From assembly GCF_003018255.1 (NCBI RefSeq), contig NZ_CP027440.1: a DNA stretch of 64,000 bases. One strand, given 5' to 3'. The stretch comes from Escherichia coli. Its GTDB lineage: Bacteria; Pseudomonadota; Gammaproteobacteria; Enterobacterales; Enterobacteriaceae. The position numbers and the translations under genes were made by a program. Positions within the stretch are counted from its first letter, which is position 1. Each line of letters begins with the position of its first letter. The notes below the pieces were generated by a model. It was not told the origin of the DNA. It did not search any database and saw only the letters and a program-made list of their open reading frames with translations. This document shows, one piece after another, positions 61,383 through 63,834 of this stretch.

Positions 61383-61413
61383 CTCCGCGCCTTTCAGCGC
61401 GGAGATTTCTTTC
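61383..61413 (+). terminator. Rho-independent terminator after ghxQ
   Basis: Hairpin CTCCGCGC-ctttca-GCGCGGAG followed by ATTTCTTTC. Confidence 0.6.
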
Positions 61414-61903
61414 ACAGAGGATTCTCACCGCTGGCAACAATACGCTGCTGGCGGACTCGCCTGAGTTCTCTTTCAGTAAGCAACTGCAGCGCCTGTGTTG
61501 GGCAAGATTCAACGCAGGCTGGCCCCTCTTCCCGCTGTTCACAGAGATCGCATTTCACGATTTGTTGCCGGGTATCCCCCGGCAACGACTGAATGGTGAT
61601 CATTCCAAACGGGCACGCACTGACGCAACTCTGACAGCCAATACAACGGGCAGAATTGGTCTGCACCACCTGCTCGCCCATCGTCAGCGCCCCCACGGGG
61701 CAAGCGCTAACACAAGGGGCGTTTTCACACTGATGGCACATCACCGGCGCACTGATGCTGTCCAGTCGCTGTACCTTCAGCCGGGGTAAAAAGACATCGG
61801 CATTCAACTCCTGTTCTGAAGGGTGAGCGACCACACAGGCTACTTCACAAGTACGGCAGCCAATACAGTCAGCCGGATTAACGATAATTAACGATTTCAT
61901 CAC
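61412..61903 (-). CDS. ygfS: 4Fe-4S ferredoxin-type protein
   Basis: 163 aa with four Cys clusters ([57 protein letters not shown]); overlaps ygfT (ATGA). Confidence 0.9.
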
Positions 61904-63834
61904 GATGCCTTCGTATCAAACAGAGTTAACATATCGCGCGCCGCCTGCCTTCCTGCGGCCATTGCAGTGACAACCAGATCCGCGCCATGAACAGCATCAC
62001 CACCAGCAAAGACTTTTTTCAGATGCGTCTGGGTAGGTAAATACCCGACGTCACCGGTTTGAATCAGGCCCCATTTATCGAGTTTAATTCCGCTGCCCTG
62101 CAACCACGGCATGGCATGCGCCTGGAAACCAAAGGCCATAATGAGAACATCGGCGGGCAATTCAAACTCTGAACCCGCTACCGGACGAGGACGACGGCGA
62201 CCATCCGGCCCCGGCTCACCCATGGCGGTACGAATCAGGCCCACCGCAGTTAAACGCCCATCTTCGTCACAAGCGATATATTGCGGCTGAACATTGAACT
62301 GAAACTTGACACCTTCCTCGCGCGCATTGACCACCTCTTTGCGCGAGCCCGGCATACTGACTTCATCACGACGATACGCGCAGGTCACGCTGGCGGCATT
62401 GAGGCGGATGGAAGTCCGCAAACAATCCATGGTCGTATCGCCACCGCCCAATACCACGACTCGCTTACCTTCCACATCCGTCAGCGGATACTCTTCAGAC
62501 TCCGGCAACCCCATGAGCTGGCGGGTATGGGCAGTCAGGAACGGTAGAGCCTGAATGACACCGGGCGCATCTTCATGCGGCAGATCTGCTCGCATCATCC
62601 CGTAAGTCCCCACGCCGATGAAAACTGCATCATATTCAGAAGTTAAATCGCTAAAGGTAATATCGCGGCCAATTTCACAGTTAAGATGAAAGTCGATTCC
62701 CATTGCGGTGAATATCTCTCGCCGCTGGCTTAATACCGTTTTATCGAGTTTGAAAGGAGGTATGCCAAAAGTCAGCATACCGCCAATTTCTGGATGGCGA
62801 TCAAAGACATCAACCTGAACTCCTGCGCGCGCCAAAATATCAGCACACCCTAACCCTGCAGGCCCTGCGCCAATCACCGCCACTTTTTCGATACGGGGAA
62901 CAACTTTGCTGACATCGGGACGCCAGCCCATCGCCAGCGCGGTATCGGTAATGTAGCGTTCCAGATTCCCGATAGAGACTGCGCCAGAGTGATCTTTCAA
63001 AGTACATGCGCCTTCACAAAGACGGTCCTGTGGACATACCCTGCCGCAGATTTCTGGCAAGGAACTGGTCTGGTGGCAAAGTTCTGCCGCTTCAATAATC
63101 TTTCCTTCCTGCACCAGACGGATGTAATCCGGAATAGCGTTATGCAGCGGGCAATGCCAGTTGCAGTTAGCTTTTTCGGCGCAATAAACACAGCGGTCAC
63201 TCTCATAAGTCGCTTGTTGTGGATCCAGCCCGTAATAGATTTCGCCAAAGTGGGTTTTCCGTTCACTCGCTGAAATTTTATCTGCGCCTTTACGCGAGTT
63301 AACGGGGAGCAACGCTGCACTGCGAGATGGCTGAGCGTCTGATGACGCTTTTCCTGCTGCCGTTTTGCGCTGGCGGGCCACCTTTATCTGCTGCAACCCT
63401 TTATCGTCCATCAGCCGTAACGCCTGTGTTGGGCAGACTTCAATACAGGCTTGCGTGCCGGAACTGCGCTGGTTACAAAGGTCGCATTTCTGCGCAATCG
63501 TATCGACCATCTCAACGACGCCAAAGGGGCAAGCGATTGCGCATCTTTTACAACCAATACATTTTTGCTCGTCCAGTTGTACGCTATCGGGCTGGAAAGT
63601 CAGAGCATTAACCGGACAAGCCGTAACGCAAGGGGCATTGTTGCAGTGATGGCAGGCCACCGGATTCGCAGCCTGGCCTTTCCCTACAACGTGGATACGC
63701 GGTCGAAAGTCACTGTGACTCAGCGGCCAGTTTTCTTGATTATGTGCCATCGCACAGGCAATTTCACAAGCATGACAGCCTATACATTCCGCAGCTTCAG
63801 CAGCGATAAACTTATTCATTTGCATCCCTTTCAT
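61900..63834 (-). CDS. ygfT: Fe-S flavoprotein oxidoreductase (glutamate-synthase-small-subunit-like; AegA paralog)
   Basis: N-terminal 4Fe-4S ferredoxin motifs plus dinucleotide-binding [21 protein letters not shown]; the true start may be a few codons inside the 644-aa frame. Confidence 0.9.

What the first reader, a model, noticed from the sequence alone, without database searches (positions are those of the whole stretch)
61412..63834. ygfS-ygfT: overlapping ferredoxin and Fe-S flavoprotein pair as a likely electron input or output module
Both proteins carry four ferredoxin-type cysteine motifs, and YgfT adds an NAD(P)/FAD-binding domain resembling glutamate synthase small subunit. The genes overlap (ATGA) and are transcribed toward the purine cluster, so they may connect NAD(P)H or formate-derived electrons to the molybdoenzymes.
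Basis: partly seen in the sequence, partly recalled or inferred. Interest (0 to 1): 0.42.

Follow-up and report, generated by a model that had tools for sequence, protein, structure and literature searches.

The report
Known formate-linked electron module for urate
These two overlapping E. coli genes are the already named ygfT (uacF) and ygfS, an iron-sulfur flavoprotein and its small ferredoxin partner that published genetics tie to formate-dependent anaerobic uric-acid breakdown, so the finding is real but not new.

Summary
Two minus-strand genes lie at 61412-63834 and are convergent with ghxQ. YgfS (162 aa) has 16 Cys in four [4Fe-4S] motifs. The overlap is TGATG (1 nt), not ATGA.

The window is E. 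coli. YgfT scores 1499.7 bits on NCBIfam NF009451, "formate-dependent uric acid utilization protein YgfT". Literature already reports that ygfT and aegA are needed for formate- and FdhF-dependent urate degradation, that ygfT is urate-induced, and that it belongs to the YgeV regulon. The interpretation therefore restates a published proposal.

New here: the ygfT-ygfS stop/start overlap is kept in all nine relatives inspected. An fdhF gene lies beside or inside the module in six loci: Klebsiella (two species), Salmonella diarizonae, Cedecea, Erwinia and Pantoea. ygfS is missing in four lineages.

Best model, inferred: FdhF passes electrons to YgfS and the YgfT Fe-S chain, then to FAD, then to NAD(P)+. 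That NAD(P)H feeds XdhD-YgfM and YgfK, which use NAD(P)H in vitro. Direct wiring to XdhD is not excluded.

Novelty: already known. Interest is low to moderate.

The parts
61412..61900 (-). ygfS CDS (162 aa from the ATG at 61900; the maximal ORF starts at the GTG at 61903). HycB/HydN-type ferredoxin with four [4Fe-4S] motifs.
   Evidence: It is identical to the RefSeq ygfS product in L001. Best PDB match is HycB 7z0s_B at E 6.6e-32.
61900..63819 (-). ygfT (uacF) CDS, 639 aa. The maximal ORF reaches 63834.
   Evidence: (NF009451 at 1499.7 bits against a cutoff of 1154). There is one amino-acid difference (K505E) from the L001 protein.
63325..63819 (-). YgfT N-terminal HycB-like ferredoxin domain (about residues 1-165) with four [4Fe-4S] motifs at C12, C56, C87 and C112.
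   Evidence: motifs; 7z0s_B at E 1.7e-30; HDCR HycB3/HycB4, 7qv7.
62926..63258 (-). YgfT GltD-type di-cluster region (Fer4_20) with Cys 210/213/219/223 and 258/262/268/272.
   Evidence: PF14691 at 2.4e-37. In the alignment, all eight Cys align with Cys of the Azospirillum GltS small subunit.
61951..62886 (-). YgfT FAD and NAD(P)H-binding domain. It carries the FAD motif GAGPAG at residue 317 and a second nucleotide site GGGDTT followed by YRRD.
   Evidence: motifs align with the NADPH-dependent GltS small chain 6s6s_G.
61898..61903 (-). Stop/start overlap GTGATG. The ygfT TGA stop (61902-61900) shares one base with the ygfS ATG (61900-61898), which implies translational coupling.
   Evidence: The overlap (TGATG or ATGA) is kept in all 9 related loci checked.
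61383..61404 (.). GC-rich hairpin CTCCGCGC-CTTTCA-GCGCGGAG between the convergent ghxQ and ygfS stop codons. It is a likely shared terminator; the T-run is good only on the + strand.
   Evidence: L001 20084-20105, which maps to window 61383-61404.
63860..63883 (-). Conserved 24-nt block ACATGCCCATTTATTGCATCGCGA about 40-65 nt upstream of the ygfT ATG. It is a candidate promoter or operator element of unassigned type.
   Evidence: Alignment A1 of six Escherichia/Citrobacter intergenic regions. It is nearly invariant even in the divergent Citrobacter R56. It does not match the sigma-54 consensus within 2 mismatches.
63527..63542 (+). PurR-box-like sequence GGGCAAGCGATTGCGC inside ygfT. It overlaps the codons of the third Cys motif (CAIACP).
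   Evidence: position. PMC3159470 lists this sequence under a PurR ChIP-chip peak named ygfT-ygfS.

Best explanation
ygfT-ygfS is the known cytoplasmic electron-transfer module of formate-dependent anaerobic urate catabolism in E. coli.

Shown here or by cited work:
- YgfT is a fusion of a HycB-like tetra-[4Fe-4S] domain with a GltD-like unit that has two [4Fe-4S] clusters, FAD and an NAD(P)H site.
- YgfS is a free HycB/HydN-like tetra-cluster ferredoxin that is translationally coupled to YgfT.
- Neither protein has a substrate-binding catalytic domain.
- The operon is co-regulated with the uricolytic cluster.
- ygfT is reported to be needed for formate/FdhF-dependent urate degradation.

Inferred mechanism:
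1. Formate dehydrogenase H (FdhF) oxidises formate.
2. Electrons enter through YgfS, acting as the FdhF-docking adaptor, and/or through the YgfT N-domain.
3. They run along the Fe-S chain to the YgfT FAD.
4. The FAD reduces NAD(P)+, probably NADP+.
5. The NAD(P)H formed drives the two reductive steps: XdhD-YgfM (urate to isoxanthine) and YgfK with SsnA (dearomatisation).

On this model FdhF plus YgfS plus YgfT would be a three-part formate:NAD(P)+ oxidoreductase. Its build resembles the NADP-dependent formate dehydrogenase of Moorella, which has a GltD-like beta subunit.
For: Identity and architecture.

Literature:
- ygfT and aegA are reported to be involved in formate-dependent urate degradation, and were proposed to take electrons from formate dehydrogenase to NADP+ or to urate (FDH-H dependence stated for AegA).
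- ygfT is urate-induced.
- ygfT and uacT are in the YgeV iModulon, and ygfT expression drops in a ygeV mutant.
- XdhD-YgfM and YgfK use NAD(P)H in vitro.
- HycB, HydN and YsaA gave weak two-hybrid signals with FdhF, while AegA bound HycB/HydN/YsaA but not FdhF. This fits a separate ferredoxin acting as adaptor.
- The Moorella NADPH-dependent FDH beta subunit is sfrB2, and SfrB is GltD-like.

Context found here:
- An fdhF gene (TIGR01591 at 1045 and 891.8 bits) lies next to the module. It has a TGA codon at position 140 in K. aerogenes, K. michiganensis, S. enterica diarizonae and Cedecea colo.
- fdhF follows ygfS closely (about 15 nt in Erwinia oleae; an 8-nt overlap in Pantoea sp.), with Cys at position 140, so it looks like one ygfT-ygfS-fdhF operon.
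- In 15 of 17 loci with a full-length YgfT/AegA-type gene, xdh-type, ssnA/ygfK or ygeWXY genes lie within 10 kb.
- Every xdh-type enzyme seen in these loci keeps its own FAD domain or subunit, and YgfK, where present, keeps its own GltD-like NAD(P)H unit. This fits NAD(P)H as the shared currency.
- The NAD(P)H and FAD motifs and all eight GltD cluster Cys are conserved in YgfT. The gene is under purifying selection.

Thermodynamics, from my own knowledge: CO2/formate is about -430 mV and NADP+/NADPH is -320 mV, so formate can hold NADPH highly reduced. Li et al. describe the YgfK step as thermodynamically unfavourable on its own.
Against: - No biochemical assay of YgfT or YgfS exists in the literature I could search.
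- The primary genetic paper could not be read, so the phenotypes are second-hand.
- In this window, and in E. coli generally, fdhF is encoded elsewhere as a single copy. The link in E. coli therefore rests on the reported genetics.
- The fdhF next to ygfTS in Klebsiella is 83% identical in DNA to E. coli fdhF. It may simply be the organism's only fdhF rather than a dedicated copy.
- AegA did not bind FdhF in the two-hybrid assay, and aegA deletion had no effect on benzyl-viologen-linked FDH-H activity.
- ygfS is absent in Citrobacter R56, Atlantibacter and Arsenophonus, so it is not obligatory.
- Fermenting cells already have NADH, so why a formate-to-NAD(P)H route would be needed is argued only from thermodynamics.
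- NADP versus NAD specificity is inferred from motif similarity alone.
Confidence: 0.5

Rival explanations
1. Direct wire. YgfS and the YgfT Fe-S clusters pass formate-derived, low-potential electrons straight into the Fe-S clusters of XdhD-YgfM and/or YgfK, without free NAD(P)H. The YgfT flavin site would then be only an alternative entry or overflow.
For: - The module always sits beside xdh-type or ygfK genes.
- In Erwinia, Pantoea, Mixta, Buttiauxella and Serratia it is divergently transcribed from the xdhAB-xdhC-mocA genes.
- Low-potential electrons would favour urate reduction. From my own knowledge, the xanthine/urate couple is about -360 mV, below NAD+/NADH.
- HycB-like proteins are promiscuous docking partners.
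Against: - XdhD-YgfM co-purify as a two-subunit enzyme that works with NADH, and YgfK works with NAD(P)H.
- Both acceptors keep their own flavin/NAD(P)H modules in all loci inspected.
- The YgfT NAD(P)H and FAD motifs are fully conserved, which is unnecessary for a pure Fe-S relay.
- There are no interaction data.
Confidence: 0.2
2. Reverse direction. YgfT is an NAD(P)H-oxidising reductase, as GltD is in glutamate synthase. It would push electrons from NAD(P)H through its ferredoxin domain and YgfS to a partner enzyme such as XdhD, YgfK or an unknown reductase. Formate would act only indirectly, for example through regulation or the redox state.
For: - The closest solved relatives (GltS small subunit, DPD) work in the NADPH-to-Fe-S direction.
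- The review PMC8097209 lists this as one option for AegA.
Against: - The reported requirement for formate and FDH-H.
- fdhF lies adjacent to ygfT-ygfS or closely follows it in six loci.
- The downstream acceptors already have their own NAD(P)H entry.
Confidence: 0.12
3. Nfn-like flavin-based electron bifurcation or confurcation. The YgfT FAD would split or merge electron pairs between NAD(P)H, a low-potential Fe-S branch (the ferredoxin domain, YgfS and FdhF) and a higher-potential acceptor in the urate pathway.
For: - The YgfT C-terminal part is homologous to the bifurcating subunits NfnI-L (5jca_L, E 1e-85), NfnB (4ylf_B) and StnC (8oh5_C).
- PMC8097209 raises the possibility for AegA.
Against: - YgfT is clearly closer to the non-bifurcating GltD (E 2.5e-107) and keeps the GltD all-Cys ligand pattern.
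- No NfnA/PyrK-like small subunit appears in the E. coli window or in any of the loci inspected.
Confidence: 0.08
4. A general accessory of formate/hydrogen metabolism whose position next to the purine genes is coincidental.
For: YgfS, YgfT, AegA, HydN, YsaA, HycB and HyfA form one paralogous group. E. coli aegA is not next to purine genes (Brenneria aegA context).
Against: - Urate induction, YgeV-iModulon membership and the reported mutant phenotype.
- Synteny with urate permease and uricolytic genes is conserved across about ten genera, even though the cluster is rearranged.
Confidence: 0.03

Closest known systems
E. coli K-12 YgfT (UacF) and YgfS
   Same: It is the same locus. NF009451 scores 1499.7 bits. 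The region is found in 5269 of 5426 complete E. coli genomes with the same neighbours ghxQ and uacT. The YgfS protein is identical to the RefSeq one, and YgfT differs by one residue from the closest strain.
   Different: Nothing of substance differs. The strain is about 0.2-0.7% diverged from its closest complete genomes in DNA.
AegA (E. coli paralogue, formate-dependent uric acid utilization protein)
   Same: It has the same fusion architecture; NF009408 scores 953.5 bits on YgfT. It is reported to act in the same formate-dependent urate degradation.
   Different: YgfT falls below the AegA cutoff of 1003 bits. The Brenneria aegA has no ygfS-like gene downstream; that E. coli aegA also stands alone is from my own knowledge. 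In Pectobacterium and Buttiauxella, AegA-type genes do have one. aegA is only modestly urate-induced.
HycB of formate hydrogenlyase, and HydN/YsaA
   Same: These are the best structural relatives of YgfS and of the YgfT N-domain (7z0s_B at E 6.6e-32 and 1.7e-30). They have four [4Fe-4S] motifs. In the two-hybrid study HycB, HydN and YsaA gave weak signals with FdhF.
   Different: YgfS scores 137.8 bits on the HydN model against a cutoff of 260, so it is a distinct paralogue. Binding of YgfS to FdhF is untested.
Glutamate synthase small subunit GltD (GltD-like Fe-S flavoprotein module)
   Same: TIGR01318 scores 846.8 bits and 6s6s_G matches at E 2.5e-107. All eight cluster Cys, the FAD motif and the NADPH motif align.
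   Different: There is no glutamate synthase large subunit partner. The GltD-like module is fused to a tetra-cluster ferredoxin. The likely direction of electron flow is the opposite one, towards NAD(P)+.
NADP-dependent formate dehydrogenase of Moorella thermoacetica (SfrB2 with SfrA2/FdhF3)
   Same: It is a GltD-like NADPH subunit working with an FdhF-type catalytic subunit. This is the same logic as FdhF plus YgfT.
   Different: I did not compare the sequences directly. In E. coli fdhF is unlinked, and an extra ferredoxin (YgfS) is present. The Moorella enzyme works physiologically in CO2 reduction.
NfnB / NfnI-L and StnC (bifurcating GltD-like subunits)
   Same: The FAD plus two-cluster module is homologous (E 1e-85 down to 5e-61).
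   Different: There is no NfnA-like partner, the similarity is lower than to GltD, and the N-terminal extension is different.

Membership tests
YgfT equivalog (NCBIfam NF009451, formate-dependent uric acid utilization protein) | Full-length match above the curated cutoff of 1154 bits | tested here: met
   1499.7 bits over profile positions 1-639 of 639.
YgfT equivalog (NCBIfam NF009451, formate-dependent uric acid utilization protein) | Chromosomal position between ghxQ and uacT, beside the xdhD/ygfK/ssnA cluster | tested here: met
   The window is collinear with an annotated E. coli chromosome.
YgfT equivalog (NCBIfam NF009451, formate-dependent uric acid utilization protein) | Requirement for formate-dependent urate degradation | not testable with these tools
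   Reported for K-12 by Iwadate & Kato 2019. I could reach it only through citing papers (searches failed).
GltD-like Fe-S flavoprotein module (TIGR01318 / PF14691 + PF07992) | Two N-terminal Cys clusters (8 Cys) for two [4Fe-4S] centres | tested here: met
   C210/213/219/223 and C258/262/268/272 align with the GltS small subunit Cys.
GltD-like Fe-S flavoprotein module (TIGR01318 / PF14691 + PF07992) | FAD dinucleotide fold and a second NAD(P)H fold with the YRR(D) signature | tested here: met
   GAGPAG at residue 317; GGGDTT followed by AYRRD aligned to GGGDTA and LYRRD of 6s6s_G. Cofactor specificity itself is not testable here.
HycB/HydN-type tetra-[4Fe-4S] ferredoxin (for YgfS) | Sixteen Cys in four CxxCxxCxxxC-type motifs and homology to HycB | tested here: met
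   7z0s_B at E 6.6e-32.
HydN equivalog (NF007658) | Score above the curated cutoff of 260 bits | tested here: not met
   137.8 bits. YgfS is a paralogue, not HydN.
HycB/HydN-type tetra-[4Fe-4S] ferredoxin (for YgfS) | Physical docking to FdhF | not testable with these tools
   Only indirect evidence exists: fdhF adjacency in six related loci and two-hybrid data for paralogues.
NfnAB-type bifurcating transhydrogenase | NfnA/PyrK-like small subunit (FAD plus [2Fe-2S]) encoded with the GltD-like subunit | tested here: not met
   No such gene appears in the window's annotated relative or in 12 related loci with Pfam-annotated neighbours.
NADP-dependent formate dehydrogenase (GltD-like subunit plus FdhF-type subunit) | FdhF-type catalytic subunit encoded with the GltD-like subunit | tested here: inconclusive
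   It is absent from this window; E. coli fdhF is single-copy and elsewhere. It is present next to ygfT-ygfS in six related loci, and in two of these it follows ygfS closely or overlaps it.
NADP-dependent formate dehydrogenase (GltD-like subunit plus FdhF-type subunit) | Formate:NADP+ oxidoreductase activity | not testable with these tools
   This needs anaerobic enzymology.

The most novel reading that the evidence does not exclude
E. coli and its relatives build a previously unrecognised soluble formate:NAD(P)+ oxidoreductase from FdhF, the adaptor ferredoxin YgfS and the Fd-GltD fusion YgfT. AegA with HydN/YsaA would form a second version. Its dedicated job would be to hold NAD(P)H reduced enough to drive the uphill reductive steps of anaerobic urate degradation. 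YgfS would be the FdhF-docking subunit that YgfT itself lacks.
Probability: 0.4. Interest if true: 0.5.

Novelty: already known. Interest (0 to 1): 0.27.

Why it matters
Anaerobic urate degradation by gut bacteria affects host urate levels and gout, and the enzymes of the reductive pathway were worked out only recently. The papers I could read do not settle how formate supplies the reducing power. YgfT/AegA are the named candidates, and YgfS has not been studied.

The conserved fdhF adjacency and the ygfT-ygfS coupling found here make one concrete model testable: FdhF-YgfS-YgfT as a formate:NAD(P)+ oxidoreductase. That could matter for engineering uricolytic probiotics, since the strain of Li et al. 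overexpresses the core gene cluster and the preprint does not discuss YgfT beyond one introductory mention. As a genome-scan finding, however, it only rediscovers annotated genes with a published role.

Tried and rejected
1. Sigma-54 promoter upstream of ygfT. The consensus TGGCAC-N5-TTGCW with up to 2 mismatches gives no hit on the ygfT strand in the ygfT-uacT spacer. The total number of hits in the locus equals the chance expectation (29 against 27.8). The conserved block at 63860-63883 has TG instead of GG at the -24 position, so I did not call it a sigma-54 promoter.

2. The sigma-70 and terminator scan of the region found no more sites than shuffled sequence does. Only the ghxQ/ygfS hairpin is positionally sensible.

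3. Rfam at a permissive E-value found nothing in 61000-64000.

4. I looked by eye for FNR- and CRP-type sites upstream of ygfT. Only half-site matches turned up, so none is claimed.

5. The primary paper (Iwadate & Kato 2019) could not be retrieved by DOI or by PMC id.

6. The genome-contig scan with the single protein returned only 12 loci, all close relatives. Wider context came instead from the search for homologous proteins and the look-up of encoding contigs.

7. I considered that YgfT itself reduces urate or an intermediate. I rejected this because Fe-S and flavin/NAD(P)H modules account for all but a linker of about 27 residues, leaving no room for a substrate domain.

8. I considered calling the neighbouring fdhF in Klebsiella a dedicated paralogue. 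I withdrew the claim because it is 83% identical in DNA to the single E. coli fdhF and may be the orthologue.

9. I did not run structure prediction. The tools return no coordinates or interface scores, so it could not discriminate between the models.
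Full report
**Observation**

The window holds two minus-strand ORFs at exactly the stated coordinates: 61412..61903 (163 aa, GTG start) and 61900..63834 (644 aa). Megablast places the region in Escherichia coli. Of 5426 complete genomes, 5269 hold it, the best at 99.8% identity, and all annotate it as ghxQ / ygfS / ygfT. The whole window is collinear with one such chromosome at about 99.3% identity. It runs from recB through xdhABC, ygeV, ygeWXY, hyuA, ygfK, ssnA, ygfM, xdhD, xanQ, guaD and ghxQ to ygfS-ygfT.

RefSeq starts ygfS at the ATG at 61900 (162 aa). It starts ygfT at the third ATG at 63819 (639 aa), which is preceded by AAGGGA.

The junction reads GCATCGTGATGAAATCG on the coding strand. 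The TGA stop of ygfT therefore shares one base with the ATG of ygfS (TGATG).

**Composition**

YgfS has 16 cysteines, all in four ferredoxin motifs. The first 130 residues of YgfT have the same four motifs, and the two are 45% identical (E 2e-45).

YgfT also has two GltD-type cluster motifs (C210...C223 and C258...C272), a GAGPAG FAD fold and a GGGDTT...YRRD NAD(P)H fold. All of these align residue for residue with the NADPH-dependent glutamate synthase small subunit. YgfT therefore probably holds six clusters, not four.

Pfam and NCBIfam agree. Fer4_20 scores 2.4e-37, Pyr_redox_2 scores 2.7e-26 and TIGR01318 scores 846.8 bits. The full-length equivalog NF009451, "formate-dependent uric acid utilization protein YgfT", scores 1499.7 bits against a cutoff of 1154.

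Among solved structures, the ferredoxin parts are closest to HycB of formate hydrogenlyase (7z0s_B) and to HycB3/HycB4 of the hydrogen-dependent CO2 reductase. The flavoprotein part is closest to GltD, then NfnB/NfnI-L, StnC and DPD. Neither protein has room for a substrate-binding catalytic domain.

Both genes are under purifying selection: dN/dS is 0.07 for ygfT and 0.09-0.14 for ygfS. They are less constrained than their neighbours, which range from 0.014 to 0.038.

**What is already known**

I could not retrieve Iwadate & Kato 2019. Several papers summarise it.
- aegA, ygfT and ygeV are involved in formate-dependent anaerobic urate consumption. AegA and YgfT were proposed to take electrons from formate dehydrogenase to NADP+ or directly to urate. 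The review describes the pathway as formate- and FDH-H-dependent.
- Liu et al. found ygfT strongly induced by urate.
- ygfT and uacT sit in the YgeV iModulon together with xdhABC, ygeWXY, hyuA, ygfK, ssnA, ygfM and xdhD, and ygfT expression falls in a ygeV mutant.
- ygfT has been renamed uacF, and the operon is cited as uacF-ygfS.
- Li et al. 2025 reconstituted the reductive pathway. XdhD-YgfM reduce urate to isoxanthine with NADH, and YgfK plus SsnA dearomatise and open the ring with NAD(P)H. They did not place YgfT or YgfS in it.
- A two-hybrid study groups YgfS, YgfT, AegA, HydN, YsaA, HycB and HyfA as paralogues. HycB, HydN and YsaA gave weak signals with FdhF. AegA contacted those ferredoxins but not FdhF.

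**New comparative evidence**

I inspected 17 loci with a full-length YgfT/AegA-type gene.

- ygfS. A ygfS-like gene follows immediately in 13 of the 17. In the nine relatives whose junction I read, the stop and start codons overlap. It is absent in Citrobacter sp. R56, Atlantibacter, Arsenophonus and the Brenneria aegA locus.
- Link to the uricolytic genes. In 15 of the 17 loci the module lies within 10 kb of uricolytic or xdh-type genes, even though the cluster is heavily rearranged between genera.
- fdhF. An fdhF gene is part of the neighbourhood in six loci.
  - In Klebsiella aerogenes, K. michiganensis, Salmonella enterica subsp. diarizonae and Cedecea colo the order is fdhF-permease, transcribed divergently from ygfT-ygfS. 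This fdhF is 715 codons long with an in-frame TGA at codon 140, and TIGR01591 scores 1045 bits on it.
  - In Erwinia oleae and Pantoea sp. BAV 3049 the order is ygfT-ygfS-fdhF with a gap of about 15 nt or an 8-nt overlap, so apparently one operon. This fdhF has Cys at position 140 and scores 891.8 bits.
  - E. coli has a single fdhF elsewhere, and it is 83% identical in DNA to the Klebsiella gene. I therefore do not claim that the neighbouring copy is a dedicated paralogue.

**Mechanism**

The simplest reading that fits all of this has four steps.
1. FdhF oxidises formate.
2. Electrons enter the HycB-like clusters. YgfS is the likely docking adaptor, by analogy with HydN/YsaA for AegA.
3. Electrons pass through the YgfT N-domain and its two GltD-type clusters to FAD.
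4. FAD reduces NAD(P)+.

The NAD(P)H would then serve XdhD-YgfM and YgfK, which keep their own NAD(P)H-entry modules in every locus where they were seen. A precedent exists: the NADPH-dependent formate dehydrogenase of Moorella has a GltD-like SfrB-type beta subunit.

The steps from FdhF to YgfS to YgfT and from FAD to NAD(P)+ are inferred, not shown. From my own knowledge, the potential of formate (about -430 mV) could keep NADPH reduced enough to pull steps that Li et al. describe as thermodynamically unfavourable.

The rivals are:
- the reverse direction, from NAD(P)H into the Fe-S chain;
- Nfn-like bifurcation, which is disfavoured because no NfnA-like partner exists and YgfT is clearly more GltD-like;
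- coincidental adjacency, which regulation and synteny effectively exclude.

**Verdict**

The genes are annotated and named for this function, so the novelty class is "already known".

The residual interest lies in the unresolved biochemistry and the unstudied YgfS. The fdhF synteny found here gives a concrete, testable model for both.

Noticed in passing
L014 5708-7855 (-), L018 2538-4685 (-), L020 5736-7883 (-), L022 5731-7878 (-); L016 12456-14606 (+), L024 12452-14602 (+): An fdhF-type formate dehydrogenase gene sits beside ygfT-ygfS in Klebsiella aerogenes, K. michiganensis, Salmonella diarizonae and Cedecea. There it has a TGA (selenocysteine) codon at position 140. In Erwinia oleae and Pantoea sp. 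it follows ygfS closely or overlaps it, with Cys at position 140.
   Followed up: yes
L004 11905-11980 (Citrobacter sp. R56); L023 11940-12005 (Atlantibacter); L015 (Arsenophonus): ygfT is present but ygfS is absent. In the first two, a short spacer with a hairpin replaces ygfS before ghxQ. The ferredoxin partner is therefore dispensable or replaceable in some lineages.
   Followed up: partly
window 63527-63542 (+): A PurR-box-like 16-mer, GGGCAAGCGATTGCGC, lies about 280 nt inside ygfT, on the codons of the CAIACP cluster motif. A published PurR ChIP-chip peak was assigned to this sequence. A better PurR-like box, AAGCAACCGTTTACGT, lies just upstream of uacT and outside the window (L001 about 22908-22924).
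   Followed up: partly
window 63860-63883 (-): A 24-nt block upstream of ygfT (ACATGCCCATTTATTGCATCGCGA) is almost invariant across Escherichia and Citrobacter, including the otherwise diverged Citrobacter R56 spacer. It does not fit the sigma-54 or sigma-70 consensus well, and its function is unassigned.
   Followed up: partly
L001 22871-22886 (+), outside the window (about 170 nt beyond window position 64000): A sigma-54-like element, TGGCAC-N5-GAGCA, lies about 70 nt upstream of uacT. It is conserved in all six aligned spacers, which fits YgeV/sigma-54 control of uacT. In L001 only, a 17-bp perfect palindrome TCGTGGTTAAACCACGA lies about 60 nt further upstream (about 22799-22815). It is degenerate in the other strains.
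   Followed up: partly
L007 9986-10894 (Escherichia sp. MOD1-EC7003): ygfT is cut off after about 292 residues and is followed by unrelated genes (an M23 peptidase, a permease, a thiolase fragment). This is a natural deletion that removes the rest of ygfT, ygfS and the purine cluster on that side.
   Followed up: partly
window about 30500-33400: In the collinear annotated relative, yqeG is followed directly by tRNA-Gly, actS and xdhA. From my memory of the K-12 map, the ETT2 type III secretion remnant lies at this position in K-12. It appears to be absent in this strain.
   Followed up: no
window 61383-61404: A single GC-rich hairpin sits between the convergent ghxQ and ygfS stop codons. The T-run follows it only on the + strand, so it is a conventional terminator for ghxQ and at best a weak one for ygfT-ygfS.
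   Followed up: partly
L012, L016, L017, L024, L025, and L014/L020/L022: Outside Escherichia, Citrobacter and Atlantibacter, the xdh-type enzyme next to the module is a fused XdhA-XdhB protein of about 1070 aa, with a separate XdhC-like [2Fe-2S] subunit and MocA. This replaces the XdhD-YgfM pair. In Buttiauxella, Erwinia, Mixta, Pantoea and Serratia, the ygeV-like sigma-54 activator and ygeW-ygeX-ygeY lie directly alongside.
   Followed up: partly
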